From a virus, in IMG/VR virus record IMGVR_UViG_3300020430_000007: a stretch of 64,000 nucleotides of DNA; one strand, given 5' to 3'. Under the pieces are notes generated by a model. That model was not told the DNA's origin, ran no database searches, and worked only from the letters and a program-made list of their open reading frames with translations. The position numbers were made by a program, and so were the translations under genes. Of the stretch, positions 60 through 53,314 are shown in pieces. Every line of letters starts with the position of its first letter. Position 1 is the first letter of the stretch.

Positions 60-225
60 GGGGTACGGATAACACGAATTGACAGTGTTTTTCGTGCCTT
101 TTGTGTTATAATGGGGGGGCGGTTAGCTAAAAAAGCAAACAACCCTAACCTACAAAAGTATCCCAACGAGCGATATATAAAAAAAATCGCAAAAAAATTT
201 TTTGCCCTTAAAAAAAATTCTGGAT

Positions 226-1173: not shown

Positions 1174-1369
1174 TGACGGTTTAGTAGGAAAAATCACACG
1201 GAACTCTGCAGGTAAATATGAGTGGAGTTTAGGTGAGTTTTATAAAGATGCTGAGATTGTTGGTAAGACTGGCACTTTTAATGGAAGGACACAACTTGTA
1301 AAAGGAACCGAAGATGATTACGACACCGCAGCAGCAGCACTAAAAGCAGCATTCGTGGCAGCAGAATAG
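1154..1369 (+). CDS. small hypothetical late protein
   Basis: 71-aa ORF with phage-like codon use and an upstream late promoter. Confidence 0.65.
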   Translation: MAYTRDDDGLVGKITRNSAGKYEWSLGEFYKDAEIVGKTGTFNGRTQLVKGTEDDYDTAAAALKAAFVAAE

Positions 1370-2121
1370 CATCGAAGCATACATATATCAGCTGAGTAGA
1401 CAATAAAAGTATATCCTTCTTGTCGCCTCTCAGAGAATTCTTCTTTAGGATCCTTTGAGAGGTGATTTCCTGGTATGTGATAACCGATTGGCACATTATT
1501 TCGTAGACATCCTTTCTTGAACTCTCCTAACACTTGCAAGTATTTGACATTTTCAAAATCACCTGCACAACCGAGAGATGCTGAAAGATCATACGGACCT
1601 ATCAGTGCAACATCCACATCGACACTTAGAATCTCATCGATGTTTTCCACAGCTTCGTAGTGTTCTATCATTGGTATGAGTAACGGTTGTTGTCCTAATC
1701 CTTCTCGGTGCTCATGAAATTGTATACCATACCCGTTTCCTCTGTTAAACCCTATACCCCGTGTGCCTCTGGGTGGCAGCGAGAAACTCTCTTTTATCTC
1801 AGAGAGTTGTGATTTATTTCTTATTTGAGGAACTATGATACCAGCAGCACCTTGTTCTAATGCTTCAATGGCACAATAGGAGTCTGGTTTAGATATACGT
1901 GCTAAAGGTAATGTATTGCCTAATTCCAATGCCCGAAATATGTTTGGTAACTGATCACGTGTAATATTACTATGTTCTAAGTCTACTCCTATAAAATCAA
2001 ATCCTTGTGATCCTAAGATCTCTGCAACCTCAGGACAGGGTAATTGCATCCAAGACCCTACAACATGTCTACCTTCTGCTAAATATTGTCGAATCTTTTG
2101 AACTGCTGCAAATTTATTCAT
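1318..2121 (-). CDS. HpcH/HpaI-family class II pyruvate aldolase (GarL-like)
   Basis: Motifs GFDFIGVDLEH, GAAGIIVPQI, PPRGTRG, MIEH, IGPYDLSASLG. Confidence 0.92.
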   Translation of the reverse strand: MNKFAAVQKIRQYLAEGRHVVGSWMQLPCPEVAEILGSQGFDFIGVDLEHSNITRDQLPNIFRALELGNTLPLARISKPDSYCAIEALEQGAAGIIVPQIRNKSQLSEIKESFSLPPRGTRGIGFNRGNGYGIQFHEHREGLGQQPLLIPMIEHYEAVENIDEILSVDVDVALIGPYDLSASLGCAGDFENVKYLQVLGEFKKGCLRNNVPIGYHIPGNHLSKDPKEEFSERRQEGYTFIVYSADICMLRCYSAATNAAFSAAAAVS

Positions 2122-2701
2122 GATTTTATTCTCTGGATGTAGTATAACATATGGTGATGAGTTAGTAAACCCCGAAAAAGACAGATTTTCTAAAAATCAT
2201 ATCAATATTGCACGGTGTGGATTGTCAAATGACATGATTGTCATGAGAACTATCGAGTATATTGAACAAAATCCCGATGTAGATTACGTTATAACGCAAT
2301 TTACAGTGCCTAGACGGTCAACATACTACAAAAATGAGTGGAAAAGCATCACACCATGGATAAAAAACGTGCAATCAGATGTATATTATAAGTATTTGGA
2401 CTCTCAAGAAATGAGAAATATGAATTTATGGAAAAATGTGTATATTTTAGAGCAATATTTACGTGACATACCGCATTATTTCTGGAGATTGAGTGAAAGC
2501 ACAGAGAAATCATCAACAAATGACGGTATTTTTAAGAATTTGGTGCCTTGGAGTAATATGAAGACCTTATATGAACTAATTGGCAGACCCGATACATCTC
2601 CTCAACACTATGTAACTGGTCACCCTAACAAAAAAGGTCATGATTTGATTGCTCAACACCTCCAAGGCGTTGTCCCAAACATATTATACCACTCATCGTA
2701 G
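2120..2701 (+). CDS. SGNH/GDSL-like hydrolase or acyltransferase (copy 1)
   Basis: Block I FSGCSITYG, GLSN block, C-terminal GHPNKKGH. Confidence 0.8.
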   Translation: MILFSGCSITYGDELVNPEKDRFSKNHINIARCGLSNDMIVMRTIEYIEQNPDVDYVITQFTVPRRSTYYKNEWKSITPWIKNVQSDVYYKYLDSQEMRNMNLWKNVYILEQYLRDIPHYFWRLSESTEKSSTNDGIFKNLVPWSNMKTLYELIGRPDTSPQHYVTGHPNKKGHDLIAQHLQGVVPNILYHSS

Positions 2702-3561
2702 TATTTGGCAAGGTATCTTCGACCAAAACTCAAGTCATCATCAGTCAAATCCTCTAAATCAGAGGAATACTGGTCACTGAGGTTCTCATGGTGGGGTGCT
2801 TTTGTTCCCATTTCAGGATAATAGCAGTTAGGGTATAGATTTTTGATGTCAAAATGTAAAAAGTCACTAAGTTTTGCTAAAGCATCGTTTTTTCCACCCC
2901 ATAAATCTTCTGAAACTATGGTTGTGGTGCTAAAAATCGATTTATAACACTTTATTCTCTTAACAAACTCACAATTTATGCTATAATTGCCTTTCATAAG
3001 ATAATTTCTGAAATAATCTCTTGATGTAGGATATTTTTTACGTATATTTTTGTCATATTGGTATTGTGCCGACAATTCGCTGTATAATCTACGAACTGGG
3101 TCACGAAAAATTATTAAAACCTTAATTTTGAAGTGTTTTCTGAGTTGAGGTGCTATTTCTTTTATAAATTTTTGGGGAAGCATTGCATTGCTGTTAGAAA
3201 AATCAGCAACATATGCATATTCGTGTTTTATTCTCTCATAATGTCTTTTGTAATATTTGATATATGTCTCTAACGTCGGTTTTGTAAATAATTCTTCAAT
3301 CTCATCTAGATTTTCAGTAAAAGCATACTTATCTTTTAGATGCCACTCATTTTTGTAGTGTGGATTCTCGGATTTACCCATAATGAATTCATACCAAGGT
3401 CTTCTCCACTCCCATGCCTCATCGCTAAAAATATGATATAATAAGTGACTCTCCTTTTGTAGTCCTACATGGGCACACTTGTTAGAACGTTGTAATGTAA
3501 GGTGAAGAGGACTTGTAGCACTCCAACCAGTCCCTGCACCGATGATCAATGGAACTCTCAT
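2653..3561 (-). CDS. sulfotransferase-fold protein (paralog 1)
   Basis: GTGWSATSPL loop, KESHLL, DFSN, FRDPVRRLYS; ATG at 3561 overlaps the upstream stop (ATGA). Confidence 0.8.
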   Translation of the reverse strand: MRVPLIIGAGTGWSATSPLHLTLQRSNKCAHVGLQKESHLLYHIFSDEAWEWRRPWYEFIMGKSENPHYKNEWHLKDKYAFTENLDEIEELFTKPTLETYIKYYKRHYERIKHEYAYVADFSNSNAMLPQKFIKEIAPQLRKHFKIKVLIIFRDPVRRLYSELSAQYQYDKNIRKKYPTSRDYFRNYLMKGNYSINCEFVKRIKCYKSIFSTTTIVSEDLWGGKNDALAKLSDFLHFDIKNLYPNCYYPEMGTKAPHHENLSDQYSSDLEDLTDDDLSFGRRYLAKYYDEWYNMFGTTPWRC

Positions 3562-4439
3562 GTCCAAGGCATAGTACCAAAGTAATTATACCACTCATCG
3601 TAATACTTTGTAAGGTGTTTTCTACCAAACTCAAGATCTTCTTCAGTCAAATCTTCTAAATCTGAAGACCATTGGTCTTTTAATTTCTTATGATGAGGTG
3701 CTTTTGTTCCCATCTCTGGAAAATATGCATTTGGCCACAATTTTTCAAACTTAAAATCTAAAAATTTCTCTAAGTTTTCTTGACAATTATTTTTTCCACC
3801 CCATAAATCCTCAGAAACGATACTTATGGTACTAAAATGCTCGTTGAATGATTTATAACTGCCAACATAATCAGAATTTGGAGTAATCTCTCCTTTTTTA
3901 AGATAACTTCTCCAATATTCTTTTGAAGTGCTATAACTATTTTGCAATTCTTTAGAATCTTGATATCTTTGAGACATTTCTGAGTATAATCTTCTTGTTG
4001 GATCTCTAAAAATCTTTAAAACCTTGATATCAAAATGTTTTTTTAATGTAGGAGCAATTTTTGCAATAAAATCTTTCGGTAAATTAGCATTACTGTTAGA
4101 AAAATCATGAACATACTTGAATTTGTGCTTCACACGTTCATAATGACGTTTATAATACTTGACATATATCTTTAAATTTGGACTTCTAGTGTAAAACTCT
4201 TTAATTTCATCTATATTATGATGTAACTTTTTAGAAGTCATCGAATTACCAACAAAACGTTTATACGAAGGTTCTCTCCATTGCCATACACTAGGGTCAT
4301 AAATATTCATCAGGAAATGGGGTTCTTTCAGAATACCTGGATGACTACATTTATTTGCACATGATAGTGTAAGATGAAGTGGAGTGGTCGCACACCAACC
4401 ATGTCCAGCTCCTATTATTAATGGAACTTTCTTATTCAT
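3558..4439 (-). CDS. sulfotransferase-fold protein (paralog 2)
   Basis: GHGWCATTPL, KEPHFL, DFSN, FRDPTRRLYS; closely similar to paralog 1. Confidence 0.8.
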   Translation of the reverse strand: MNKKVPLIIGAGHGWCATTPLHLTLSCANKCSHPGILKEPHFLMNIYDPSVWQWREPSYKRFVGNSMTSKKLHHNIDEIKEFYTRSPNLKIYVKYYKRHYERVKHKFKYVHDFSNSNANLPKDFIAKIAPTLKKHFDIKVLKIFRDPTRRLYSEMSQRYQDSKELQNSYSTSKEYWRSYLKKGEITPNSDYVGSYKSFNEHFSTISIVSEDLWGGKNNCQENLEKFLDFKFEKLWPNAYFPEMGTKAPHHKKLKDQWSSDLEDLTEEDLEFGRKHLTKYYDEWYNYFGTMPWT

Positions 4440-5085
4440 GAAAATATTATTCAGTGGTGATAGTTTTACTTATGGTGACGAATTATCAAATAGAGAAAAA
4501 GATCGTTTCTCAAGACTAGTTAGTGAACATTATGCTGCAGAAGAAATTAACAAGGCACAATGTGGTTCCTCAAACGATAAAATTGTTCGTGATGTATTTG
4601 AATATCTTCATCTGTTCAATGTTGACGCTGTAGTTGTTCAATTTTCAATATTACGTAGATTTGATGCTTATAAAGATGGTTGGATAGGAATGATGCCTGA
4701 AGATACAGGTGGAAAGTATTGTCATGCTCCAGATTGGAAGAAAAATATAGCAAGAGCATATTATAAACACGTTCAAGATGATAGAAAAGATCAAGAGCGT
4801 TATTTTCAACAAATTTTGTTGTTGCAATCATTTTTGAATCAAAAAAATATCCCATACGTTATGTTGGGTCTAGAGAGTTTTGAATATAGGCAGGAAAAGA
4901 TATATTATAATTACATCAAAGATTTTTGTGAGGATTTTGAATATATAATTCCAAATCTTATAGGAGGGTACAGATCTGAAAATTATTGTCCAGATCTCAC
5001 ACATATTAACTCTGCTTTGCATGGGATGCACCCAAATGAAAAGGGTCATAAAATCATAGCAAATCATATTATCAGTAAATTATGA
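4438..5085 (+). CDS. SGNH/GDSL-like hydrolase or acyltransferase (copy 2)
   Basis: MKILFSGDSFTYG, GSSN, GMHPNEKGH; start at ATG 4438 chosen by alignment with copies 1 and 3. Confidence 0.8.
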   Translation: MKILFSGDSFTYGDELSNREKDRFSRLVSEHYAAEEINKAQCGSSNDKIVRDVFEYLHLFNVDAVVVQFSILRRFDAYKDGWIGMMPEDTGGKYCHAPDWKKNIARAYYKHVQDDRKDQERYFQQILLLQSFLNQKNIPYVMLGLESFEYRQEKIYYNYIKDFCEDFEYIIPNLIGGYRSENYCPDLTHINSALHGMHPNEKGHKIIANHIISKL

Positions 5086-6134
5086 AGATAAGGCATAAAC
5101 CTAGAATACCAGTCGCACCACCTCCAAAAAAACCAACTTTACTTATGAATATTGGTGTTGGTTGGTCTGCAACCACTCCATTCTTATATACTCTCTCAAT
5201 AGATCAAAGATACTGTCATCCTGGTCATATAAAAGAAAATCATTACCTTAGAATGATATTTGAGCAAGATTGTTGTAATAAATTTGACATACATAAATTT
5301 ATTTTATCAACATCAGCAAATGAAAAGCAATGGATATTTAGAAAATGGCAAAAAGAATTATTTGAGTACAGTTATCACTTTCTTGATGATCCAAATTACA
5401 TAAAAGATTGGTATTCGCTTCCAGTTACCATTGATAAGTATATTGATTATTACATAAAGCATTGGGAAGTAATAAAAAGTGATTTTCATGCCGTAGCTGA
5501 TTTTTCTAATCATAATTGGGCAATTCCTTATTATGAAAATGGTTCAGACATGATAAAGGAGATACAAAAAGAATTTGAACTAAAAGTTACAGTTCAATTT
5601 AGAGATCCTATAAAACGTTTGTACTCAGAGTTAGGAACTTGTTTTGTTGATAAGAGAGTTCCACATATGTTTACTTTAGGTGCAACATCAAAACTACTGA
5701 GAGGTAGAAAATACTTACAAAACAATCAACACAATAATTTTTTTAAATTTTGCTTAGACGATGGTGCTTGGGATAGTGCAAACTGTCGATACATTGATTT
5801 ATTGACAAAGTGGGAGTCGTTAGTTGGCACTGCCAACATATTACCTATCATAATGGAAGAATTTTGGAATCCTCAATATAGAAAACAACAATGTGAGAGA
5901 TTATCTAATTTTTTAGGAGCACCAATTCAAAAAATTCATCAAAATGCCTATTTTCCAGATATGGGTGCAGATGCACCTCACCACATAGGTCTTATAGATC
6001 AATGGACCTCTGATAAAGAAACAATTACTGAAGAAACTATAGAATATGCACTAAAATACATGAAACCGTGCTATACTGATTGGAAGTCTAAATTTGGAAG
6101 TGTACCTGAGTTGTGGACAAAGTATGAAGATTAA
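5082..6134 (+). CDS. sulfotransferase-fold protein (paralog 3)
   Basis: GVGWSATTPF, KENHYL, DFSN, FRDPIKRLYS, NAYFPDMG. Confidence 0.8.
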   Translation: MKIRHKPRIPVAPPPKKPTLLMNIGVGWSATTPFLYTLSIDQRYCHPGHIKENHYLRMIFEQDCCNKFDIHKFILSTSANEKQWIFRKWQKELFEYSYHFLDDPNYIKDWYSLPVTIDKYIDYYIKHWEVIKSDFHAVADFSNHNWAIPYYENGSDMIKEIQKEFELKVTVQFRDPIKRLYSELGTCFVDKRVPHMFTLGATSKLLRGRKYLQNNQHNNFFKFCLDDGAWDSANCRYIDLLTKWESLVGTANILPIIMEEFWNPQYRKQQCERLSNFLGAPIQKIHQNAYFPDMGADAPHHIGLIDQWTSDKETITEETIEYALKYMKPCYTDWKSKFGSVPELWTKYED

Positions 6135-6735
6135 TTATGTTACTGATCCTTGGAAATGTGTAGAAATAGAAGATTTTCTACCTGAAGATAGGTGGAAAGA
6201 AATACAAGGACTAGCAAAAATAGAATTAGATAACTACCACTCTTCAAATACTAAAGAAAAGTCTGGTCATTATGTAAGATTCCTAGATTATGATATTATT
6301 CCAGAAACCAATAGTTTATTTACAGATATTGCTTTACCTCATCGTGAATATAAAGGTAAATTGAAAAAACTTGTGCATTGGGCAATTTCTCCTCCAAAAT
6401 GGAATTATCCAACTCATTGTGACAATAAATCCAGAATAAGCACTTCAATCATGTATATTTCTCCTGAGAATAGTGATGGTACTGTTCTACATAAGAACGC
6501 TAGTCAAAATGATGGAGGTGATCATGAAAAGGCAGATTTACCATCAACCTACACTTGTAAATTAGATTGGAAACCCAATAAGGTTTTCTTTCATAATAGT
6601 ATTCCAAATAAAACTTGGCATAGTATTCAAAATTCTACAGATCTTCCTAGAGTCGTATTAAGTTCGTTTCTAATACAAGAAGATTTGATTTTACCGAACA
6701 GACCTTGTTCAGGGTATGAAATTTCTATTAATTAA
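6124..6735 (+). CDS. 2OG-Fe(II) oxygenase superfamily protein
   Basis: HxD (HCD), distal His (TWHS) and downstream Arg; typical N-terminus DPW..IEDFL. Confidence 0.8.
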   Translation: MKINYVTDPWKCVEIEDFLPEDRWKEIQGLAKIELDNYHSSNTKEKSGHYVRFLDYDIIPETNSLFTDIALPHREYKGKLKKLVHWAISPPKWNYPTHCDNKSRISTSIMYISPENSDGTVLHKNASQNDGGDHEKADLPSTYTCKLDWKPNKVFFHNSIPNKTWHSIQNSTDLPRVVLSSFLIQEDLILPNRPCSGYEISIN

Positions 6736-6741
6736 TAATTC

Positions 6742-7569
6742 GTGACTACCTTATTGATTAGTGCTGGCACTGCTTTCTCTGCTAGTTCACCTTTACACTA
6801 CACATTATGTTTAGATAACAAATATGCTCATACTGGTTTATGTAAGGAAAATTTTTACCTCTATTCACTTCAAGAGGGTGTGAATATTGAGTTTGGTCGT
6901 GACACATCAAAAAACAAACCTCCACAAATGACTATCACGCACGGATGTGAGGAGTTACATGGTAGAAGATCAATAAACTCTTACATAAGATATTATCAAC
7001 GGTTGTGGGAGCATATAAAGACTGATTATCAAGCAATTGCTGACTTTTCTAATCAAAATGCTTGTTTGACTGAAAAATTCATGAAATCTATAAAACCAAA
7101 TTTACTTAAGTGTTTTAATGTCAAAGTAATAATGATTTTTAGAGATCCTATACGTAGATTGTGGTCAGTTTGTAACAAAGGTAACATCAAAGATTTTCGT
7201 AGATGGGTAAGTGGTGAATTAGAACCAAATGCCATGTATGCTGACATTTATAAAAGATATAGGAATGTTTGGGGTGAAGAAAATGTTCATATGGTGGTTA
7301 TGGAAGAATTATGGGAAGGAAAGACGCAAGCACTCTCTAATTTTTTAAATTTCCCTATAAACACAATTCATGAAAATGTTTATTACCCTGAAAGAGGAAC
7401 AAAAGCACCGCATTACGAATACTTAATGGATCAATGGATATCTGACAAACATGATTTAGATGTAAAGACATGGGAGTATGCCATAAGCAATATGGGTTGG
7501 GTGTACAAAGATTTTAAGGAAACTTTTGGATACATACCTGATAAGTGGGGTCAATGGTATGAAACCTAA
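6742..7569 (+). CDS. sulfotransferase-fold protein (paralog 4)
   Basis: GTAFSASSPL, KENFYL, DFSN, FRDPIRRLWS. Confidence 0.8.
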   Translation: MTTLLISAGTAFSASSPLHYTLCLDNKYAHTGLCKENFYLYSLQEGVNIEFGRDTSKNKPPQMTITHGCEELHGRRSINSYIRYYQRLWEHIKTDYQAIADFSNQNACLTEKFMKSIKPNLLKCFNVKVIMIFRDPIRRLWSVCNKGNIKDFRRWVSGELEPNAMYADIYKRYRNVWGEENVHMVVMEELWEGKTQALSNFLNFPINTIHENVYYPERGTKAPHYEYLMDQWISDKHDLDVKTWEYAISNMGWVYKDFKETFGYIPDKWGQWYET

Positions 7570-8524
7570 ATTATTATTGAACGCTGGAACTTGTTTCTCA
7601 GCAACAAGTCCGTTGTGGTATACTTTAGGGTTAAATAACCACTATGCTCATACTGGACACGCAAAAGAGCACAATTATCTTTATCATATGATGATTGATG
7701 CGAAAAGGTCCATCAGTACACCTAGTCAACTCAATTCATCTGTTAGATTGACTCAAAAGTGGGAACAAACTGATTTGATAAAAAAAACCAAGAAGAAGGA
7801 GAAAAAGAGGGATGGAAAAGATGGATTCATGCATGTTTATCCTGAGATGACTAAAAGGTCACCTTTTATAGAAGGTAAGTGGACATTAGAAGAAAGAAGA
7901 GATTTTTTTGATAATCCAGAACTAAGTATTGACAAATATATTAAGTATTACCTAAAACATTGGGAAAACTTTAAATGTGAATATCAATCAGTTGCAGATT
8001 TCTCTAATACTAATGCTTGCTTGTCTGTAGAGTTTATGGAAAGTATAAAACCTAAATTATTAGAATATTTTGATATAAAAGTAACAATGATCTTTAGAGA
8101 TCCTATTCGTAGGTTATTTTCAGCGTGTAATAGAGTTCATTCTAAATCTGGTGGAATTATGGAAGGATTTAGAAATTGGATCCTATCTGACAGTATGGAA
8201 GAGAACGTTTACTACTCAAACATATATAATAGGCATTGTCAGGTATGGGGTAAAGAAAATGTAATGCCTATTATAATGGAGGAGTTCTCTACTGATAAAT
8301 TATCTGATTTCTTAGGTTATCGTTTAGTCACTGCTCATCAGAATTGTTATTATCCTGAAATGGGTTCTAATGCACCAAAATATCCTGGTTTGTCAGATCA
8401 ATATAGTTCAGATAAGATAGATTTGTATAAAGAGACTTATGAGTTTGCTTTAGTACATATGGAGAACATTTATAAATCATTTGAAGAAACTTTTGGTTAC
8501 ATACCCGAAGCATGGAAAAAATAA
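7559..8524 (+). CDS. sulfotransferase-fold protein (paralog 5)
   Basis: MKPKLLLNAGTCFSATSPL, KEHNYL, DFSN, FRDPIRRLFS. Confidence 0.8.
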   Translation: MKPKLLLNAGTCFSATSPLWYTLGLNNHYAHTGHAKEHNYLYHMMIDAKRSISTPSQLNSSVRLTQKWEQTDLIKKTKKKEKKRDGKDGFMHVYPEMTKRSPFIEGKWTLEERRDFFDNPELSIDKYIKYYLKHWENFKCEYQSVADFSNTNACLSVEFMESIKPKLLEYFDIKVTMIFRDPIRRLFSACNRVHSKSGGIMEGFRNWILSDSMEENVYYSNIYNRHCQVWGKENVMPIIMEEFSTDKLSDFLGYRLVTAHQNCYYPEMGSNAPKYPGLSDQYSSDKIDLYKETYEFALVHMENIYKSFEETFGYIPEAWKK

Positions 8525-9402
8525 AGTTATTATGGAATATTGGGACCAACTATTCCGCTACAACTCCTTTTTGGTACACATTATCGTTAAATCATAAATT
8601 TTGCCATACTGGTCATCGTAAAGAATTGCATTGGCTTGATCTTCTGGAATCTCAAAAGTTTTGGAAAACGAAAATCAAGGGTAGACCACGTTATTACAAA
8701 TATTTCACTAATAGGATTTTTGGTTTTACTACATCACCTTTAGCATACCTAAAAACCGACAAACCATCAAAATTACAAAATGCTAGATGTTTCACTAAGG
8801 AAGAAGAAGAATACTTCTTCTCTTATCCAACATCAATTGAAAAGTACATTGATTATCGTAAAAGGCATTGGAATCACATAAAACATGAGTATCATGCATT
8901 AGGTGATTTTTCAAATAGTTATTGTTTATTATCTGAAGACTTTATGAGAGGTATTAAGGATAAATTACTAGAAGTCTTTGATCTAAAGATTACTGTATGC
9001 CTTAGAGACCCTGTTCGTCGTTTATGGTCCTCTAACCCTAATAAATCAGGCGGAATAGATAAAGTTTCTAATTATGGTAAAATATTACGGTCTTATTATA
9101 ATGTTTGGGGTAAAGACAATGTTCTTCCTATTATAATGGAGGAATTTTGGGATCCTAGTAAATATAGAGAGCAGACTGAAAGATTATCTAATTTTTTGAA
9201 TTATCCTATTACTAACATCTATAAAAACGTTTATTATCCTGAACTTGGTTCTAATTCACCACAATATGAATTTTTGAAAGATCAATGGAAAAATGAGAAG
9301 GATATTGATTTAGAAACATATAAACACATTTATTCTAAATTAGAATGGATTTACCAAGACTGTGAAAAAATTTTTGGTTATATCCCAGAAAAATGGCAAT
9401 AA
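8512..9402 (+). CDS. sulfotransferase-fold protein (paralog 6)
   Basis: GTNYSATTPF, KELHWL, DFSN, LRDPVRRLWS. Confidence 0.8.
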   Translation: MEKIKLLWNIGTNYSATTPFWYTLSLNHKFCHTGHRKELHWLDLLESQKFWKTKIKGRPRYYKYFTNRIFGFTTSPLAYLKTDKPSKLQNARCFTKEEEEYFFSYPTSIEKYIDYRKRHWNHIKHEYHALGDFSNSYCLLSEDFMRGIKDKLLEVFDLKITVCLRDPVRRLWSSNPNKSGGIDKVSNYGKILRSYYNVWGKDNVLPIIMEEFWDPSKYREQTERLSNFLNYPITNIYKNVYYPELGSNSPQYEFLKDQWKNEKDIDLETYKHIYSKLEWIYQDCEKIFGYIPEKWQ

Positions 9403-9405
9403 ATA
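9399..9405 (+). promoter_or_regulatory. T4-type late promoter
   Basis: ATAAATA overlapping the stop of paralog 6, about 20 nt upstream of the micro-ORF. Confidence 0.55.
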
Positions 9406-9426
9406 AAAATACTTATTTTTATAGAT

Positions 9427-9519
9427 ATGAAAAGATTATGGCAATGGATAAAAGGTGAATACAAACTTTGGAAATTACGTAAGCAAGATCCATATATTTA
9501 CGAAGAAGATGATGACTAA
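9427..9519 (+). CDS. 30-aa micro-ORF MKRLWQWIKGEYKLWKLRKQDPYIYEEDDD
   Basis: Translated by hand (below the track cut-off); fills the gap, follows a late promoter, ends in a DP(F/Y)IY-type motif. Confidence 0.65.
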   Translation: MKRLWQWIKGEYKLWKLRKQDPYIYEEDDD

Positions 9520-10362
9520 TTACCAACTATGTGGTATATAACCAAATTTTTTCTCAAACCCTTCATATAACCAATTAAGTTTTTTTCTACCATAATCAAG
9601 ATCATCTTTTGATAAATCTTGCAAGTCAGATGTCCATTGGTGTTCTAAACCCTTTATATGCGGTGCTCTTGTTCCTCGTTCTGGAAAATAAAGATTTTTG
9701 CTCATTTTATCTATTTTCACACCTAGAAAATCAGACAAACCTTTTGGATTCTCCCAAACCTCCTCCATAATCACAGGATACACCTTTTTGAACGCAGATG
9801 ACCAATTTTTGTAAATTGTTACGTAGTCTGGTAATACAATTGAGGGTTTTTCTAAATTTGACCTCCAATATTCTAAACTATTAGAATATCTTTTATAACT
9901 GTCATTCCATTTTTCTTTGTACCATGTTGACATTTGAGAATATGATCTCCTGACTGGATTTCTCCATATTGTAGTGACTTTGACATCAAATTCGCTTTCA
10001 AGTCTTGGTGCAATCTGTCTCAAGAAGTATGCAGGTAAATCTCCGTTACTATTTGAGAAATCGCTGACACCTTTATGACTTTTAACAATATGTGATTTAA
10101 TATAATCAACATACCAGTCTAGAGTCGTGTCTTTTTTGACAAAATCTAATCCTCTTTTCTTATGATCCTTGTGCCAGTAAATATTTGCATGCTTTGGATT
10201 GTATTCCCTCTCATATAAGTAATATAGCACATTACACTCTGTAGTATGCTCTCTATTTGGGCATATCGCATATCCAATGTCTGAAAGTGTGTCGCAAAGC
10301 GGTTTAGTCGCAGACCACCCCACTCCAGCATTTATGTGCAATACGGGTTTCATAAATATCAT
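9520..10362 (-). CDS. sulfotransferase-fold protein (paralog 7)
   Basis: GVGWSATKPL, DFSN, WRNPVRRSYS, NLYFPERG; AAGGAG Shine-Dalgarno 5 nt before the ATG. Confidence 0.8.
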   Translation of the reverse strand: MIFMKPVLHINAGVGWSATKPLCDTLSDIGYAICPNREHTTECNVLYYLYEREYNPKHANIYWHKDHKKRGLDFVKKDTTLDWYVDYIKSHIVKSHKGVSDFSNSNGDLPAYFLRQIAPRLESEFDVKVTTIWRNPVRRSYSQMSTWYKEKWNDSYKRYSNSLEYWRSNLEKPSIVLPDYVTIYKNWSSAFKKVYPVIMEEVWENPKGLSDFLGVKIDKMSKNLYFPERGTRAPHIKGLEHQWTSDLQDLSKDDLDYGRKKLNWLYEGFEKKFGYIPHSW

Positions 10363-10380
10363 GCATTCTCCTTATATATT

Positions 10381-11343
10381 TTGAAAATACCATTATTGAT
10401 ATTTGGTGGATGGGGTCATGCTGCATCTACACCATTTTATTATACTCTTTCTTTAGATAATAAGTATTGTCATGGTGGACACAGAAAGGAGACTGGATAC
10501 CTTAATGAATTAGAAAATTATGAGTTCTTTGATCAACCTATGTGGACGTATACTAGTGACCCATATGATAGGTTGATGGTAAAGGATTCTAGTATGCCAC
10601 CAATACTTGATAAGCATGTAAAGCATAGTGAGGAGTTTATCCGAGATTGGATAGCAGAACCACCAAGTATATGTAAGTACATTCATTATTATCTAATACA
10701 TTATGAAAACATCAAACATGAATATAAGGCAGTTGCTGACTTTACAAACGGCAATTCTTGGTTGAGAGAACCATTTCTTGACAAGTACGTGCCTGCATTG
10801 CAAGAGTTTTTTGATATAAAATGCATATTTGTTTCTAGAGATCCAGTCCGTAGATCATATTCAGATTTTAGTGCTAAGTTTACAGGAAATGATCCTAGTG
10901 GTAAAATGTTGAAAGAAGGTATGTTATACCCTAACAATCCCACTGACAAACATTATAATAATATACATGATATGTTTTGCGGAGAACTACGTAAGACTTG
11001 TACAAGGTTCTATGTTGAGTTTTATAAAAAATTCAGCAAATACTTCCCAACTCTTCAAATTGTGATGGAGGATTTTTGGGAACCTGATAATTTTACTGAG
11101 CAGACCGAAAGGTTATCCAATTTCTTAGGTTATCCTATTACAAAGATACATGAGAATGCTTTTTGGCCAGAAGCAGGTGAAAATGCACCTAAATACGATT
11201 TCCTGAAGGATCAATGGGGATCTGTAAGGGAACCACTAACAAAAGAGTTATACGATTATGGTAGAGAACAATTGGACCCAATCTATTCTCAATGGAAAGA
11301 AGAGTTTGGATCTTTGCCTAGTTCTTGGGGTAAACATATATGA
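10381..11343 (+). CDS. sulfotransferase-fold protein (paralog 8)
   Basis: GWGHAASTPF, KETGYL, DFTN, SRDPVRRSYS; probable TTG start at 10381 by alignment; ATAAATA at 10352-10358. Confidence 0.78.
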   Translation: MKIPLLIFGGWGHAASTPFYYTLSLDNKYCHGGHRKETGYLNELENYEFFDQPMWTYTSDPYDRLMVKDSSMPPILDKHVKHSEEFIRDWIAEPPSICKYIHYYLIHYENIKHEYKAVADFTNGNSWLREPFLDKYVPALQEFFDIKCIFVSRDPVRRSYSDFSAKFTGNDPSGKMLKEGMLYPNNPTDKHYNNIHDMFCGELRKTCTRFYVEFYKKFSKYFPTLQIVMEDFWEPDNFTEQTERLSNFLGYPITKIHENAFWPEAGENAPKYDFLKDQWGSVREPLTKELYDYGREQLDPIYSQWKEEFGSLPSSWGKHI

Positions 11344-12719
11344 TAGGGTTTAGCGAGGGATTTCATGACGCTGCAATTGCGGTTGTTCATAAAAATACTA
11401 TTAGTTACGCTGCACATTCTGAGAGATACTCAAAAAAGAAGCATGATAAAGTATTGAACTTAAATGCAGTCACCATGGCAAGGGGATTGAATATACATGA
11501 TGACATTGTAGCATTTTACGAAAACCCGTTATCAAAAAGAACTAGACAGTTATATGCAGGACAAAAAGCGTGGAGGAGAGATAGACGGTTATCTTTGCAA
11601 CCTAATAAGTATATGCAACATCATAAATCACACGCTGCTGCTGCATTTCAAACATCCAACTTTGAACACGCTGCGTGTGTGGTGGTAGATAGCATTGGTG
11701 AGTGGGATTGTTCCTCAGTGTGGACTGCTAATATGGTAAGAGGATCCGCAGTATATAAAAAAGTATGGTCTAGAAGATATCCTAAGTCTATAGGACTTTG
11801 GTATAGTGCACTGACTAAATGGGCAGGATTAAGACCATTAGATGAAGAATATATTTTTATGGGAATGGCAGCCTTCGGAAAACCTTGTTATACTAAAGAG
11901 TTACGAGCATTACTTTCTAAAAATAACCATAAAGGTATACGTGGACTAGAAGGTGATTCATGTGATGTAGCAAAAAGTGCGGAGGTTGTTCTTCAAGAGG
12001 AATTGTTCAAAATATTTGATATTGCTAAAAAATACAGTAACAACATTTGCTATGGAGGCGGAGTTGCACTAAACTGTGTTGTAAATACAAAACTAAGGGA
12101 AAGGTGCAATCTTTGGATTATGCCTAATCCTGGCGACGCTGGAGGTGCTTTAGGTGCAGCTTTACTTGCATATGGTAAAAAAGTTCAATTTACTCCCTAT
12201 CTCGGATGTAACATTAGGGGTTCGGTGGATCCAGAAGAGGTGGTCGATCACATACTCAAACATAAAATCGTTGGTGTTGCAAATGGTCGTGCTGAGTTTG
12301 GTCCTCGTGCTCTTGGTAATAGAAGTCTATTGGCGGATCCACGCCAAATTTCAACCAAAGATCTAGTCAACGAAATAAAACAACGTCAGAAGTTTAGACC
12401 ATTTGCTCCTGCTATACTAGAAGAGCATTGTCAGGAATGGTTTGATATGCCTGAGCATTCAAGGCATATGTCATATGTTTATCAATGTAAGCAGAGTGAC
12501 CTTATTCCTGCCTGTCTACACGTTGATAACTCTGCTAGAGTACAAACAGTGCCAGAGACATCTGAGAGCGTTCTGAGACCCATATTGGAGTGTTGGTATG
12601 AGAAGACAGGAATCCCTGTATTGTTGAATACATCTTTGAATGTTCGTGGAAAACCAATGGTAAACAATGTTGAAGATGCAAAATTGTTTTCTAGTAAATA
12701 TTCAGTCAAGGTTTTTTAA
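11340..12719 (+). CDS. carbamoyltransferase, NodU/CmcH family
   Basis: HDAA, HHKSHA, DSIGE, GGVALNC, PGDAG, EFGPRALGNRS, FRPFAP, LLNTSLN. Confidence 0.95.
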   Translation: MIGFSEGFHDAAIAVVHKNTISYAAHSERYSKKKHDKVLNLNAVTMARGLNIHDDIVAFYENPLSKRTRQLYAGQKAWRRDRRLSLQPNKYMQHHKSHAAAAFQTSNFEHAACVVVDSIGEWDCSSVWTANMVRGSAVYKKVWSRRYPKSIGLWYSALTKWAGLRPLDEEYIFMGMAAFGKPCYTKELRALLSKNNHKGIRGLEGDSCDVAKSAEVVLQEELFKIFDIAKKYSNNICYGGGVALNCVVNTKLRERCNLWIMPNPGDAGGALGAALLAYGKKVQFTPYLGCNIRGSVDPEEVVDHILKHKIVGVANGRAEFGPRALGNRSLLADPRQISTKDLVNEIKQRQKFRPFAPAILEEHCQEWFDMPEHSRHMSYVYQCKQSDLIPACLHVDNSARVQTVPETSESVLRPILECWYEKTGIPVLLNTSLNVRGKPMVNNVEDAKLFSSKYSVKVF

Positions 12720-13435
12720 TGAAAATACTGTTTCATGGATGCTCAATTACTTGGGGTGACGAACTCGAAGATCGTGAAAATGAAAGATATAGTAAATTAG
12801 TTTCTAATCATTTTCTGACTGAAGACTGTAATATTTCTCATTGCGGGAATAGTAACGATAGAATTGTAAGAGAATCTATTGAACATCTACAAGACAATTG
12901 TTTTGATATTGTGGTATTGCAGTTTACTGTACACTCAAGAGTGGAGTGGTTTGATAAACAGGGTTTTCCCCATAGGTTTACACCACAACTTACATCAACT
13001 CATGGAAAATTAAAACTCAAGGGTATTGCAGGTAGAGATGATTTGAGAGAAAGAATGTTTTCTGCTGGTAAATGGTTTTATAGGTTTGTTTATAATGATA
13101 TTCTTGGTGTCGAAAATATGTGGAAAAATATTTTTCTTTTTGATTCTTACTGTAAGGCAAACAATATTACCTTCATCCCTATTTTAGCAGATCATTTTCA
13201 TGAGGTTATTCGTAGACCAGAAAAGTTTTATCATGGGGCAAATGGAACTGGTTGGTGGAAACCTTTATGTCAGGATATACCAATAACATATATTCATGAG
13301 GATATTATAGGTCATAAAAAGGATGGCATAGGAGATCATTACTATGGTGATTACCATGCAAAGGGAAATCATCCAAACGCTTTAGGACACCAAAAAATTG
13401 CAGAAAAACTTATTAAGTTGATAGAGACTATATAA
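12719..13435 (+). CDS. SGNH/GDSL-like hydrolase or acyltransferase (copy 3)
   Basis: FHGCSITWG, GNSN, GNHPNALGH; TAATG overlap with the carbamoyltransferase stop. Confidence 0.8.
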   Translation: MKILFHGCSITWGDELEDRENERYSKLVSNHFLTEDCNISHCGNSNDRIVRESIEHLQDNCFDIVVLQFTVHSRVEWFDKQGFPHRFTPQLTSTHGKLKLKGIAGRDDLRERMFSAGKWFYRFVYNDILGVENMWKNIFLFDSYCKANNITFIPILADHFHEVIRRPEKFYHGANGTGWWKPLCQDIPITYIHEDIIGHKKDGIGDHYYGDYHAKGNHPNALGHQKIAEKLIKLIETI

Positions 13436-13446: not shown

Positions 13447-13470
13447 ATAATTGGATTGCAACCCTATAGT

Positions 13471-14229
13471 ATGGCTAAAGGATTTAAGGTGGTAACCACT
13501 CCACCCGCTACAGAAAAAAAGGAAGACTGGTGGTCTGTAGAAAAAGGAAAAGAATTAATCAAAGGTAAAAGCATTGTTTTTTGTTTGCCTGGTCGTGGTG
13601 TTTCTTACATATTTTTAAAAGCGTTTGTGCAACTTTGTTTTGATTTAGTACAAAGTGGTGCAAGTATTCAAATATCTCAAGATTACTCATCAATGGTAAA
13701 CTTTGCACGATGTAAGTGTTTAGGTGCGAATGTGCTTAGAGGACCTGATCAATTACCATGGGACGGTAAACTGAAATATGACTATCAACTTTGGATTGAC
13801 AGTGATATTGTTTTCAACCTAGAAAATTTTTATCGAATAGTTTGTATGGACAAAGATATCGCTGCTGGTTGGTATGCGACTGAAGATGGTAAGACAACAT
13901 CCGTTGCACATTGGCTTGAAGAAGATGACTTCAAGGAAAATGGCGGAGTTATGAATCATGAGATGGTTGATGGCATTCAAAAACGCAAAAAACCATTTAC
14001 AGTTGACTACACTGGATTTGGTTGGTTATTAATTAAAAAAGGAGTGTTCGAGCATAAAGAAATGACTTATCCTTGGTTCGCACCTCAAATGCAGGTTTTT
14101 GAATCTGGAGAGGTTCAAGACATGTGTGGTGAAGATGTATCTTTTTGCTTAGATGCTATCAAGGCGGGATTTGAAATTTGGTGTGACCCTCAATGTCGTG
14201 TTGGTCATGAGAAAACAAGAATTATATAG
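13471..14229 (+). CDS. glycosyltransferase-like (GT-A fold) conserved cyanophage protein
   Basis: WIDSD (DxD), YTGFGW, GEDVSFC and VGHEK motifs; MAKGF N-terminus. Confidence 0.8.
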   Translation: MAKGFKVVTTPPATEKKEDWWSVEKGKELIKGKSIVFCLPGRGVSYIFLKAFVQLCFDLVQSGASIQISQDYSSMVNFARCKCLGANVLRGPDQLPWDGKLKYDYQLWIDSDIVFNLENFYRIVCMDKDIAAGWYATEDGKTTSVAHWLEEDDFKENGGVMNHEMVDGIQKRKKPFTVDYTGFGWLLIKKGVFEHKEMTYPWFAPQMQVFESGEVQDMCGEDVSFCLDAIKAGFEIWCDPQCRVGHEKTRII

Positions 14230-14525: not shown

Positions 14526-14930
14526 GTGCCTGTCCAACGTTTTTCGCAGGGTTTTAAGGACATATCTTTGTCTTTCAAAACTCATCCAGTAACAAATGAT
14601 ATACTTGCATTGAAAAATGAGGATGCAATAAAACGTTCTGTCCAAAATTTGATAAGAATACAATTAGGAGAGGTATTTTTTAATGATTTGTTAGGTACTA
14701 GAATAACTGGTGCGTTATTTGAGCTTGCCAACGATGATTTTGTTGATCCTATAGTAACAGAAATAGAAACTACGATAACAAACAACGAACCTAGAGTGGA
14801 ATTGACTGATGTTGATGTTCAATCACAACCTGATAATAATTCTTTAGATATTAGGATATCTTATGATCTCGTTGGTTTATCTGCACCAACTCAAATTTTA
14901 CAATTCGTCTTAGAACCAACTAGGCTATAA
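14526..14930 (+). CDS. gp25: baseplate wedge subunit gp25
   Basis: DISLSF..HPVTND, AIKRSVQNL, EPRV; lies directly before gp6. Confidence 0.9.
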   Translation: MPVQRFSQGFKDISLSFKTHPVTNDILALKNEDAIKRSVQNLIRIQLGEVFFNDLLGTRITGALFELANDDFVDPIVTEIETTITNNEPRVELTDVDVQSQPDNNSLDIRISYDLVGLSAPTQILQFVLEPTRL

Positions 14931-25024: not shown

Positions 25025-25038
25025 CCTAAAAAACAATA

Positions 25039-30303: not shown

Positions 30304-30307
30304 TACA

Positions 30308-42792: not shown

Positions 42793-42812
42793 AATCAGCA
42801 CCTTATAATCTA

Positions 42813-42827
42813 ATTATAACATAAATA
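42813..42827. promoter_or_regulatory. back-to-back promoters: extended -10 (minus) and late promoter (plus)
   Basis: Minus TGTTATAAT at 42813-42821; plus ATAAATA at 42821-42827. Confidence 0.55.
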
Positions 42828-42866
42828 TCTTGGACTGTAGATACAGTTTGTTTAGGTACATACCAT

Positions 42867-51891: not shown

Positions 51892-52484
51892 ATCTATCAA
51901 ATAGATGTACGAATAGATGTCCTGGTTGTGCACGAGATAAATTCAAACATGTGCCTGGTTCTGACCTTACAGAGTCAGACATGGAAAAGATATCTAATTT
52001 TTTTCAAGCAATTACATTTTGTGGTCAGGTTTCTGACCCTGTGCTACATCCAAACTTTCATAAACTCCTTGCTATATGCTTGAGAAAAAATAGAAAAGTT
52101 GTGGTTCATACTGCTGTAGCAGCAAGACCAAAAATGTGGTGGTCTAGATCTTTTGTCATGTCAAGAGGTAAAAATATTGAGTGGGTGTTTGCTATAGATG
52201 GTCTACCGAAAGATAGCAATAAGTATAGAGTAAATCAGGATGGAGAAAAATTATTTGATATCATGTTGAAGTGTGCATCATTTGGTGTGCCTACCACATG
52301 GCAGTACATAGTTTTCAACTACAATCAAAAAGATGTTGAGCACTGCAAGCAGATAGCAAAGGAACACAATATAAAATTCATGCAAATTGATTCTGGAAGA
52401 TGGGGGACTGATGCTTTGAAATCTTTGCAACCTGACGATAATTATTCTAATATAGATGGTGTGTCTATAAGGAAATATGTATGA
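51873..52484 (+). CDS. radical SAM core-domain protein
   Basis: CTNRCPGC (CxxxCxxC), FCGQVSDP, FAIDG, WQYIVF. Confidence 0.85.
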   Translation: MYGINLDLSNRCTNRCPGCARDKFKHVPGSDLTESDMEKISNFFQAITFCGQVSDPVLHPNFHKLLAICLRKNRKVVVHTAVAARPKMWWSRSFVMSRGKNIEWVFAIDGLPKDSNKYRVNQDGEKLFDIMLKCASFGVPTTWQYIVFNYNQKDVEHCKQIAKEHNIKFMQIDSGRWGTDALKSLQPDDNYSNIDGVSIRKYV

Positions 52485-53314
52485 GACCTAAACTTCTATT
52501 GAATGCAGGATACCCTTCATCTGGAACATCGTCATTATACTATACATTATGGAATAATAAGTATGGACATGGTGGTGGTGTGAAAGAAAGTAGTTATCTT
52601 CTTCACACACAATCACCACAGGTAATGAAAGATAGAGAGAAACTACATCAAAGAAAAAAAAGGTATGGTAAAGGTATACACAGACCATGGACATTACCCG
52701 ATAGTATGTTCATGCCTGAACATACGTTTGATAAAAAACCAAGCATTGACAACTACATTAATTACTACATCAAATTATGGAAAGTTATAGGTGATGAGTA
52801 TCAATCTCTTCTTGACTTCTCTAATCCAGAACAACAACTGACAGAAAAATTTATGATGTCAATCAGAGATGAGTTACTCAAATATTTTGACATCAAGGTA
52901 GTAATGATGCTTAGAGACCCTATAAAAAGGTTGTGGTCAGTTTGTAATAGAAAATCATTGACAGAGGGAGGAACACCACACTCACATATGAAATTTGATA
53001 ATCCTTATCTAAGTTACATTGAAAAATATGAGAGGTATGTAAGAGTATGGGGAAAGGAAAGAGTAAAATTTATTATAAATGAAGATTTTTATAAAGGAGA
53101 TATGCAACCTTTATCAAAGTTTTTAGAATTTTCTATATCACCAACTTATAAAAATGTAATTCATCTCACTTCACTAAAGAATAAAATGTATTCACAATGG
53201 TGTGATCTTGAATATAAAACATGGAGATATGCTTATGAAAACATGAAATGGGTCTATGATGAGTTTGAAAATAAGTTTGGTTATATACCGAATGATTGGG
53301 CAAGTTGTATATAG
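52481..53314 (+). CDS. sulfotransferase-fold protein (paralog 9)
   Basis: NAGYPSSGTSSL, KESSYL, DFSN, LRDPIKRLWS, FGYIPNDW. Confidence 0.8.
   Translation: MRPKLLLNAGYPSSGTSSLYYTLWNNKYGHGGGVKESSYLLHTQSPQVMKDREKLHQRKKRYGKGIHRPWTLPDSMFMPEHTFDKKPSIDNYINYYIKLWKVIGDEYQSLLDFSNPEQQLTEKFMMSIRDELLKYFDIKVVMMLRDPIKRLWSVCNRKSLTEGGTPHSHMKFDNPYLSYIEKYERYVRVWGKERVKFIINEDFYKGDMQPLSKFLEFSISPTYKNVIHLTSLKNKMYSQWCDLEYKTWRYAYENMKWVYDEFENKFGYIPNDWASCI

What the first reader, a model, noticed from the sequence alone, without database searches (positions are those of the whole stretch)
2653..11343. Array of eight sulfotransferase-fold paralogs with a rewired PAPS loop
Seen: eight ~270-350-aa paralogs in 8.7 kb share G-x-x-[W/F/Y/H]-[S/C/A]-A-[T/S]-x-P, a KE/TE motif, DF[S/T]N, R[D/N]PxxRxxS and a C-terminal N.[Y/F][Y/F/W]P[E/D].G..[A/S]P....L.[D/H]Q[W/Y] block. 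Known: Sulfotransfer_1/_3 enzymes use GxxK[S/A]GT[T/S], where the Lys contacts PAPS, and RxP..R..S for the 3'-phosphate. Here the Lys position holds an aromatic residue or His in all eight copies and the Gly is Ala, while the 3'-PB motif and KE Glu are kept. Inference: such a consistent change points to selection rather than decay. This could be a new subfamily using another donor, acting as PAP(S)-binding or hydrolytic enzymes, or diversified in acceptor specificity, since the segment between KE and DFSN is hypervariable.
Basis: partly seen in the sequence, partly recalled or inferred. Interest (0 to 1): 0.85.

Follow-up and report, generated by a model that had tools for sequence, protein, structure and literature searches.

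The report
Phage sulfotransferase-like genes lacking catalytic lysine
An uncultured marine cyanophage carries nine selected copies of a sulfotransferase-shaped enzyme in which the lysine regarded as essential for sulfate transfer is replaced by a bulky aromatic residue, so these enzymes either work differently from all studied sulfotransferases or do something else.

Summary

The family has about 228 clusters (50% identity). It is found only in T4-like marine phage contigs, in no cultured phage, and in no Pfam, NCBIfam or PHROG family. Of 222 members, 209 have W/F/Y/H at the Lys position. About 90% or more of the non-Lys/Arg members keep the catalytic Glu and the 3'-phosphate motif.

A sister clade in the same phage island keeps canonical PKSGT. 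One well-supported branch separates the two clades. On that branch a 15-residue acidic insert also appears in the C-terminal nucleotide-binding segment. dN/dS is 0.08-0.21, so the genes are under purifying selection.

The array sits in a tailoring island with a prolyl-hydroxylase-like dioxygenase, SGNH enzymes, a translationally coupled carbamoyltransferase and a glycosyltransferase. Function is unproven. My best guess is lysine-less PAPS-dependent O-sulfotransferases with diversified acceptors. A changed donor is a real alternative. The same scan had noted this stretch in an overlapping window. This is a new variant of a known kind.

The parts
2653..3567 (-). Copy 1, 304 aa, loop GTGWSATSP
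   Evidence: ORF. HMM E 2.5e-98. 93% identical ortholog in L001/L002, dN/dS 0.08.
3558..4439 (-). Copy 2, 293 aa, loop GHGWCATTP. Sister of copy 1 (58% identity).
   Evidence: Ortholog in L003, dN/dS 0.19.
5082..6134 (+). Copy 3, 350 aa, loop GVGWSATTP, with a long N-terminal extension that is also kept in its ortholog cluster P0122.
   Evidence: dN/dS 0.21.
6742..7569 (+). Copy 4, 275 aa, loop GTAFSASSP. This is the copy that was modelled.
7526..8524 (+). Copy 5, 332 aa as called (probable start ATG 7559), loop GTCFSATSP. It has the longest KE-DFSN insert in the window (109 aa).
   Evidence: 96% identical ortholog in L003, dN/dS 0.085.
8512..9402 (+). Copy 6, 296 aa, loop GTNYSATTP
   Evidence: HMM E 4e-93. 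Groups with P0147/P0129.
9520..10362 (-). Copy 7, 280 aa as called (probable start ATG 10353), loop GVGWSATKP, with TE instead of KE and RNP instead of RDP.
   Evidence: dN/dS 0.16.
10336..11343 (+). Copy 8, 335 aa as called (probable start TTG 10381), loop GWGHAASTP. Its stop codon overlaps the carbamoyltransferase start (ATGA).
   Evidence: dN/dS 0.165.
52481..53314 (+). Ninth family member, 277 aa, lying between terminase gp17 and tail sheath gp18. Its loop is GYPSSGTSS (Ser at the Lys position) and it has no YYP..G..AP insert.
   Evidence: HMM E 3.6e-73. Sequence.
6094..6735 (+). 2OG/Fe(II) dioxygenase with a prolyl-4-hydroxylase-like fold, embedded in the array.
   Evidence: Invariant HxD...H...R. 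AF2 pLDDT 85. Foldseek hits PHD2, P. putida P4H and PolD at E about 3e-8.
11340..12719 (+). NodU/CmcH-type carbamoyltransferase, translationally coupled to copy 8.
   Evidence: Pfam Carbam_trans_N and Carbam_trans_C, E 5e-31 and 1.5e-52. The linkage to ST-like genes is kept in related phages.
2120..2701 (+). SGNH/GDSL-like paralog 1
   Evidence: Shares the N-terminal SGNH-type motif (ILFSG[CD]S.TYGDEL) with 4384-5085, which hits DUF6071 and Lipase_GDSL_2.
4384..5085 (+). SGNH/GDSL-like paralog 2 (probable start ATG 4438)
   Evidence: Pfam DUF6071 E 3e-11; Lipase_GDSL_2 E 2e-5.
12719..13435 (+). SGNH/GDSL-like paralog 3
   Evidence: Shared motifs. Its position is conserved in L001-L003.
13456..14229 (+). 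Glycosyltransferase-like protein (phrog_1574)
   Evidence: PHROG E 4.5e-116. Weak hit to a glycosyltransferase PHROG, E 2e-4.
1318..2121 (-). HpcH/HpaI-family aldolase at the edge of the island.
   Evidence: Pfam E 4e-17. Syntenic in L001-L003.

Best explanation
The nine genes encode a virus-specific, lysine-less clade of the heparan-sulfate-3-OST / NodH-like sulfotransferase superfamily. Each copy most likely still binds a 3'-phosphoadenosine nucleotide (PAPS supplied by the host) through the retained Thr/Ser pair of the PSB loop and the retained K..R[DN]PxxRxxS 3'-phosphate motif. It most likely still uses the retained Glu of the KE motif as general base, and transfers the sulfuryl group to a hydroxyl of a glycan or protein acceptor.

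On my reading, the transition state is stabilised by a re-engineered pocket rather than by the usual Lys. An aromatic residue at the donor/acceptor interface probably stacks on the acceptor ring. A co-acquired 15-residue loop ([YF]xP[ED]xG..AP....L.DQW) supplies polar and backbone contacts.

The copies differ mainly in a 58-109-aa acceptor-side insert, so each would decorate a different position or substrate. They would act in a phage tailoring pathway together with the embedded P4H-like hydroxylase, SGNH enzymes, carbamoyltransferase and glycosyltransferase.

Shown: fold, homology, the single origin of the switch, purifying selection, and the island context.
Inferred: nucleotide binding, sulfuryl transfer, the role of the aromatic residue and the insert, and the acceptor.
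For: - Profile homology: 3rnl E 2.8e-9, 3-OST-5 E 1e-6, with the loop aligned W on K, A on G and T on T, and KE on KEAHF.
- Retained motifs: in the 210 non-Lys/Arg members Glu is kept in 186, the first Arg of the 3'-PB motif in 203, the second Arg in 198 and the Ser in 194.
- Sister clade: canonical [PAG]K[SC]GT[TS] members are separated by one branch (SH-aLRT 97), and they lie in the homologous island of related phages. The ancestral job in this island was therefore ordinary sulfotransfer, and the aromatic types occupy the same pathway slot.
- Selection: dN/dS is 0.08-0.21, compared with 0.07 for the carbamoyltransferase.
- Old paralogs: the window copies fall in at least five deep subclades, each with its own orthologs.
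- OH supply: a hydroxylase is embedded in the array. Published hydroxylase-plus-sulfotransferase operons are proposed to sulfate newly made OH groups (PMC2938197).
Against: - The PSB Lys/Arg is treated as part of the definition of a sulfotransferase. It contacts the phosphate-sulfate ester in the transition state (PMC11625862). In NDST1, Lys614 plus a second Lys833 on the C-terminal loop hold the sulfuryl group (PMC3733922).
- Here the first Lys is gone in all nine copies. The equivalent C-terminal segment has gone from net charge +0.7 to about -2.
- No new conserved basic residue appears in the aromatic clade.
- A 13-member subclade has also lost the Glu.
- No APS kinase was found in a complete 192-kb relative, so PAPS must come from the host.
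Confidence: 0.45

Rival explanations
1. Changed donor or chemistry. The scaffold still binds a 3'-phosphoadenosine-type nucleotide, but the transferred group is no longer the anionic sulfuryl. Candidates are a neutral acyl or carbamoyl group, or a CoA- or adenylate-type donor. The Lys and the basic C-terminal residues were replaced by an aromatic platform and an acidic/polar loop to suit a less negatively charged group.
For: - Positive charge around the leaving-group site was lost at two places at once, on the same branch.
- The replacement is always a flat aromatic or His (W127, F58, Y13, H11). That is typical of stacking, not of charge stabilisation.
- The linkage with a NodU/TobZ-type carbamoyltransferase is tight and deep. 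The ATGA overlap is in the window. An ST-like gene lies directly upstream of the carbamoyltransferase in 31 of 68 loci, and the linkage also holds for the distant W+GTT clade.
- From my own knowledge, not tested here: TobZ-type enzymes form carbamoyl-AMP, which is isosteric with APS but neutral.
Against: - No precedent is known to me for a non-sulfuryl donor on this fold.
- The Lys-type sister copies have the same carbamoyltransferase neighbour, so the linkage predates the switch and does not explain it.
- The linkage is mostly shared synteny within one phage lineage, so it is not independent evidence.
- The catalytic Glu lies next to the sulfate position, which fits poorly with a long CoA arm (inference).
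Confidence: 0.22
2. Non-catalytic pseudoenzymes. They would be PAP/nucleotide- or glycan-binding proteins derived from sulfotransferases, for example acting as specificity or scaffold subunits of the tailoring pathway, or as binders of sulfated surface glycans.
For: - The residue regarded as essential for catalysis is lost.
- One subclade also lost the Glu.
- There are many diversified paralogs with hypervariable surface inserts.
- The island lies next to the baseplate and fibre genes.
Against: - Glu is retained in 89% of non-Lys members, and in all eight array copies and the ninth copy.
- dN/dS is as low as for the neighbouring enzymes.
- The Thr pair of the PSB loop is retained.
- Phages with only aromatic-type copies have no Lys-type partner in the island that could do the catalysis. 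The sample is small.
Confidence: 0.15
3. Hydrolases on the sulfotransferase fold. They would act as PAPS/PAP or sulfate-ester hydrolases that remove sulfate or drain host PAPS.
For: In canonical enzymes the Ser-Lys interplay restrains PAPS hydrolysis (PMC3733922). Removing Lys changes that control. The Glu base is kept.
Against: Nine diversified paralogs with variable acceptor-side inserts are hard to justify for one small substrate. No precedent is known to me.
Confidence: 0.05
4. Decaying duplicates or chance motif resemblance.
For: None found.
Against: dN/dS is 0.08-0.21. There are 228 clusters at E<1e-10. Each paralog has its own orthologs. The model is confident.
Confidence: 0.01

Closest known systems
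Heparan-sulfate 3-O-sulfotransferases (3-OST-1/3/5) and the NDST1 N-sulfotransferase domain
   Different: Sequence identity is 12-17%. The PSB Lys is W/F/Y/H (Ser in the ninth copy). The C-terminal loop that carries Lys833 in NDST1 is replaced here by an acidic N.YYP.G..AP....L.DQW block with no conserved Lys. The proteins are phage-encoded.
Bacterial Sulfotransfer_3-type enzymes (PDB 3rnl from Alicyclobacillus; NodH as the characterised example)
   Different: 3rnl has GAAKCGTS. The window proteins fail the Pfam gathering scores for Sulfotransfer_1/3 (best 13.5 bits against 22).
Canonical-Lys sister clade in related T4-like marine phages (P0243, P0258, P0226 and others)
   Same: It is in the same family HMM (E 1e-51 to 1e-61), lies in the same island beside the carbamoyltransferase, radical-SAM and gp25/gp6 genes, and has the same KE, DFS and RDP..R..S motifs.
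   Different: It keeps [PAG]K[SC]GT[TS] and has a short (21-aa), slightly basic C-terminal segment without the insert.
Mycobacterial Stf0
   Same: It is a known sulfotransferase with a non-consensus PSB loop, having Ala in place of Gly (PMC11625862). This is like the Ala seen in the eight array copies.
   Different: Stf0 keeps a basic residue (Arg) at the catalytic position. This family has none.
Bacterial hydroxylase-plus-sulfotransferase operons proposed by Iyer et al. 2010 (PMC2938197)
   Same: A 2OG/Fe(II) beta-hydroxylase-type enzyme is combined with sulfotransferases, near phage tail-type proteins. The proposed logic is to hydroxylate first and then sulfate.
   Different: Those operons often encode PAPS synthetase and collagen-like substrates. 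Here no APS kinase was found in a complete relative and no collagen-like repeats were found in the window.

Membership tests
PAPS-dependent sulfotransferase superfamily (Sulfotransfer_1/3-like) | Sulfotransferase alpha/beta fold with a central sheet, strand-loop-helix and strand-turn-helix | tested here: met
PAPS-dependent sulfotransferase superfamily (Sulfotransfer_1/3-like) | Significant sequence-profile homology to known members | tested here: met
   The deep family profile hits PDB 3rnl at E 2.8e-9 and 3-OST-5 at E 1e-6. Single sequences fail the Pfam cut-offs.
PAPS-dependent sulfotransferase superfamily (Sulfotransfer_1/3-like) | Catalytic Lys (or Arg) in the 5'-PSB loop | tested here: not met
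   W/F/Y/H in the eight array copies and Ser in the ninth. The position aligns on the Lys of 3rnl and 3-OST-5. Family tally: W127, F58, Y13, H11, K10, R2, S1. The definition is taken from PMC11625862.
PAPS-dependent sulfotransferase superfamily (Sulfotransfer_1/3-like) | Thr/Ser pair of the PSB loop that binds the 5'-phosphate | tested here: met
   [TS][TSK] follows the A/G in all copies. T/S is found at both positions in most of the 88 aromatic members of A2.
PAPS-dependent sulfotransferase superfamily (Sulfotransfer_1/3-like) | 3'-phosphate-binding motif R..P..R..S with the conserved helix Ser | tested here: met
   Invariant in the eight copies. In the 210 non-Lys/Arg members the counts are 203, 198 and 194 for the first Arg, the second Arg and the Ser.
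PAPS-dependent sulfotransferase superfamily (Sulfotransfer_1/3-like) | Catalytic base (Glu or His) after the PSB helix | tested here: met
   Glu is invariant in the eight copies and present in the ninth. It is kept in 186 of 210 non-Lys members and aligns on KEAHF of 3rnl.
PAPS-dependent sulfotransferase superfamily (Sulfotransfer_1/3-like) | PAPS binding and sulfuryl transfer to an acceptor | not testable with these tools
   This needs biochemistry.
Pfam PF00685 / PF13469 as curated | Score above the gathering threshold | tested here: not met
   The best result is 13.5 bits against a cut-off of 22, for copy 8 only. The other seven copies have no hit. NCBIfam and PHROGs also give nothing.

The most novel reading that the evidence does not exclude
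The lysine-less clade is a new enzyme class on the sulfotransferase fold. It would have switched from sulfuryl transfer to transfer of a neutral group (for example carbamoyl or acyl) from a 3'-phosphoadenosine- or adenylate-type donor, working with the coupled carbamoyltransferase. Marine cyanophages would have expanded it into arrays to write a combinatorial decoration code on host-surface or virion molecules.
Probability: 0.15. Interest if true: 0.85.

Novelty: new variant of a known kind. Interest (0 to 1): 0.62.

Why it matters
The PSB lysine/arginine is used both to define sulfotransferases and to explain how they work. Here a large clade lacks it yet keeps every other catalytic and nucleotide-binding element and is under purifying selection. 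This is a natural experiment on that mechanism: either sulfuryl transfer can be run without the lysine, or the fold has been recruited to new chemistry.

The system comes with built-in controls. Lys-type sister enzymes sit in the same phage island, so swap experiments are straightforward.

Ecologically, the family is widespread in Tara-type ocean viromes, occurs at up to 8-9 copies per genome, and sits beside the baseplate genes. This points to an unrecognised and elaborate surface- or virion-decoration pathway in uncultured cyanomyophages. Homology-based annotation currently misses it entirely.

Tried and rejected
- Pfam, NCBIfam and PHROGs on single copies gave no family above threshold.
- Megablast of the array against GenBank phages gave no match. 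tblastn finds the family only in the uncultured Marine virus AG-345-D19.
- The search for related loci with alignment A1 failed because no stretch was conserved enough. A single protein worked.
- No whole genome is held for this window, so a genome-wide copy count and a search for PAPS genes in this very phage were not possible. A complete 192-kb relative was used instead.
- Model coordinates are not exposed. Pocket inspection and PAPS docking could not be done. I used class-specific conservation instead, and it showed no compensating basic residue.
- I considered a relocated Lys (by analogy with WNK kinases, from my own knowledge). It is not supported, because the conserved Lys residues (in KE and before RDP) are shared with the Lys-type clade.
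- I looked for collagen-like substrates as in Iyer 2010 and found none in the window.
- The two minus-strand P-loop genes at 41.4-42.8 kb and ORF 202-1173 are not members of this family (E about 1) and have no PDB sequence match.
- Literature searches found no report of a sulfotransferase-fold clade lacking the PSB Lys/Arg and nothing on AG-345-D19. The library is partial, so this is not proof of absence.
- Co-occurrence of the loop switch and the insert rests on a single branch, so no independent-contrast statistic is possible.


Full report
**What is there.** The window is part of a T4-like marine myovirus.
- A gp6 baseplate-wedge gene lies at 14930-16807. It is 64% identical to the uncultured 'Marine virus AG-345-D19' and about 50% identical to Synechococcus phages.
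- Between 2653 and 11343 there are eight ORFs of 275-350 aa on both strands. They align end to end at 30-58% identity.
- Scanning all ORFs of the window with an HMM of the family recovered the eight at E 1e-82 to 1e-101. It also found a ninth member at 52481-53314, between the terminase and tail-sheath genes (E 3.6e-73). Its loop reads GYPSSGTSS, so Ser sits at the Lys position.
- Copy 8 most likely starts at TTG 10381 and copy 7 at ATG 10353. The pair is therefore divergent with a short spacer, not overlapping.

**Is it a sulfotransferase fold?** Yes.
- Single copies fail Pfam (best Sulfotransfer_1 score 13.5 bits against a cut-off of 22), NCBIfam and PHROGs.
- A profile of the eight gives weak hits to solved sulfotransferases. 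A 100-sequence profile gives significant ones: 3rnl E 2.8e-9, 3-OST-5 E 1e-6 and 3-OST-3 E 2e-5.
- In those alignments the family's G-v-g-W-s-a-t-T lies on GAAKCGTS (3rnl) and GVRKGGTR (3-OST-5). The aromatic residue therefore sits on the catalytic Lys and the Ala on the Gly. The KE motif lies on KEAHF of 3rnl.
- AlphaFold2 on copy 4 with that alignment gives pLDDT 92.9 and pTM 0.91.
- Foldseek against the PDB returns 48 hits at E<=1e-3, and all those shown are sulfotransferases.

**How big is the family and who has it?**
- An exhaustive HMM search of 1.8 billion representative proteins finds 228 clusters at E<1e-10 and 114 at E<1e-30.
- The word-indexed search finds 197 clusters (90% identity), mostly from ENA, JGI and Tara marine metagenomes and with no functional name.
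- Among 50,697 GenBank phage records only the uncultured AG-345-D19 virus has members.
- BFVD holds only distant (10-17% identity) viral 'sulfotransferase domain' proteins.
- The ESM Atlas neighbours are viral hypothetical clusters.
- Every contig I inspected that was long enough to show context is a T4-like phage, with the genes in the same island upstream of gp25/gp6.
- A CheckV-complete 192-kb relative has six copies.

**The Lys loss is derived, single and selected.**
- Over 222 family proteins that include the loop, the Lys position holds W 127, F 58, Y 13, H 11, K 10, R 2 and S 1.
- The Lys-bearing proteins have a fully canonical [PAG]K[SC]GT[TS] loop.
- In a maximum-likelihood tree built without the loop columns, the ten Lys sequences are split from the 90 others by one branch with SH-aLRT 97. 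Only one further change is needed, a W-to-R nested inside the aromatic clade.
- The direction (Lys first) is inferred from the fact that all other sulfotransferases have Lys or Arg (PMC11625862).
- The Gly/Ala state flips about 11 times, so it is not a fixed part of the change.
- The window's copies fall in at least five deep subclades, each with its own orthologs elsewhere. The array is therefore an old multigene family, not a recent burst.
- Against orthologs in three IMG/VR contigs, Nei-Gojobori dN/dS is 0.08-0.21 for seven copies. The carbamoyltransferase gives 0.07 and the aldolase 0.25.
- In the 210 non-Lys/Arg members the Glu is kept in 186. The two Arg and the Ser of the 3'-phosphate motif are kept in 203, 198 and 194.

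**A second, linked change.**
- Between the FL(G/N) motif and the following helix, aromatic-type members have 36 residues with net charge about -2. Lys-type members have 21 residues with net charge about +0.7.
- In NDST1 this C-terminal loop carries Lys833, which together with the PSB Lys614 holds the sulfuryl group (PMC3733922).
- The clade has thus lost positive charge at both places that flank the leaving group.
- No new conserved Lys, Arg or His appears anywhere in the aromatic clade. The newly conserved residues are Tyr, Thr, Asn, Met, Pro, Gly, Asp and Gln.
- Because both changes lie on one branch, their association cannot be tested statistically.

**Context.**
- The array is interleaved with three SGNH/GDSL-like paralogs.
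- It also contains a gene at 6094-6735 that has an invariant HxD...H...R pattern and a confident model (pLDDT 85). That model matches prolyl-4-hydroxylase-type 2OG/Fe(II) dioxygenases at E about 3e-8.
- Copy 8 is translationally coupled (ATGA) to a NodU/CmcH-type carbamoyltransferase. An SGNH gene and a glycosyltransferase-like gene follow.
- The order gp6 - GT - SGNH - carbamoyltransferase - array - SGNH - HpcH aldolase is kept in related contigs, with varying copy content.
- In 68 carbamoyltransferase loci with enough upstream DNA, 31 have an ST-like gene directly upstream on the same strand, and about 60 have one in the island. This is largely shared synteny.
- Loop types cluster by phage. 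L091 has two Lys-type copies. L005 has two W+GTT copies. This window has eight aromatic+Ala copies and one Ser copy. The sample is small.
- A complete relative has no APS kinase.
- The window has no collagen-like repeats, so the protein-substrate idea of Iyer et al. (PMC2938197) has no specific support. The giant S/T/G-rich fibre proteins downstream remain possible substrates.

**Interpretation.**
- The proteins are evolutionary members of the sulfotransferase superfamily, but they fail the one catalytic criterion that the field uses to define the enzymes.
- The retention of the phosphate-binding Thr pair, the 3'-phosphate motif and the Glu base under strong purifying selection argues that they still bind a 3'-phosphoadenosine nucleotide and still catalyse something.
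- The same island slot is occupied by Lys-type copies in related phages, which argues for continuity of role.
- I therefore favour lysine-less PAPS-dependent O-sulfotransferases with a rebuilt pocket and diversified acceptors (0.45).
- The coordinated loss of positive charge and the uniformly aromatic replacement make a changed donor or transferred group a serious rival (0.22).
- Next come non-catalytic binders (0.15) and hydrolases (0.05).
- Decay or chance is excluded.

**Novelty and score.** This is a new variant of a known kind: a large, phage-restricted, unannotated clade with a defining catalytic residue replaced. It is surprising to a sulfotransferase specialist and directly testable, since natural Lys-type controls exist. 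Its function is not yet shown. Interest 0.62.

Noticed in passing
window 41363-42813 (-): Two adjacent minus-strand paralogs (about 213 and 262 aa) have a P-loop-like N-terminus, TGPQGSGNH, again without a Lys. They are not members of the family studied here (HMM E about 1) and have no PDB sequence match.
   Followed up: partly
window 202-1173 (+): This 323-aa ORF was reported by another note as the last of six 'Family A' P-loop-like paralogs upstream of the window. It has no Pfam, PHROG, NCBIfam or PDB sequence match. The phage may therefore carry three separate expanded families of P-loop-like tailoring proteins.
   Followed up: partly
window 51607-52484 (+): Two small Cys-rich ORFs lie between the terminase gene and the ninth copy. 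The second gives weak hits to radical-SAM/SPASM models (E 3e-5 to 4e-4, far below the cut-offs). Full radical-SAM genes flank the ST-like genes in related phage islands (L005, L090, L091).
   Followed up: no
window 2120-2121 and 4437-4440: Divergent gene pairs (HpcH/SGNH1 and copy 2/SGNH2) appear to share one CATG for both start codons, if SGNH2 starts at ATG 4438. This was read from the ORF table only.
   Followed up: no
family subclade (P0182, P0190, P0194, P0200, P0202, P0205, P0211, P0214, P0219, P0222, P0237, P0240, P0188): A well-supported 13-member subclade of the aromatic type has also lost the catalytic Glu (KE becomes TK[YINKR]). These members may be non-catalytic or use another base. 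None is in this window.
   Followed up: partly
L002 5166-6233 (-) (same contig as L001/L074/L077): In a related phage, a 355-aa gene sits between the copy-8 ortholog and the carbamoyltransferase. It did not reach E 1e-10 against the family HMM. Its identity is unknown.
   Followed up: no
window 16808-25018, 25030-28740, 30296-37612, 42825-45611 (+): Four very large S/T/G-rich ORFs (2737, 1237, 2439 and 929 aa) lie downstream of gp6. They are presumably fibre or baseplate-associated proteins and are possible protein substrates of the tailoring island. They contain no collagen-like G-X-Y runs.
   Followed up: partly
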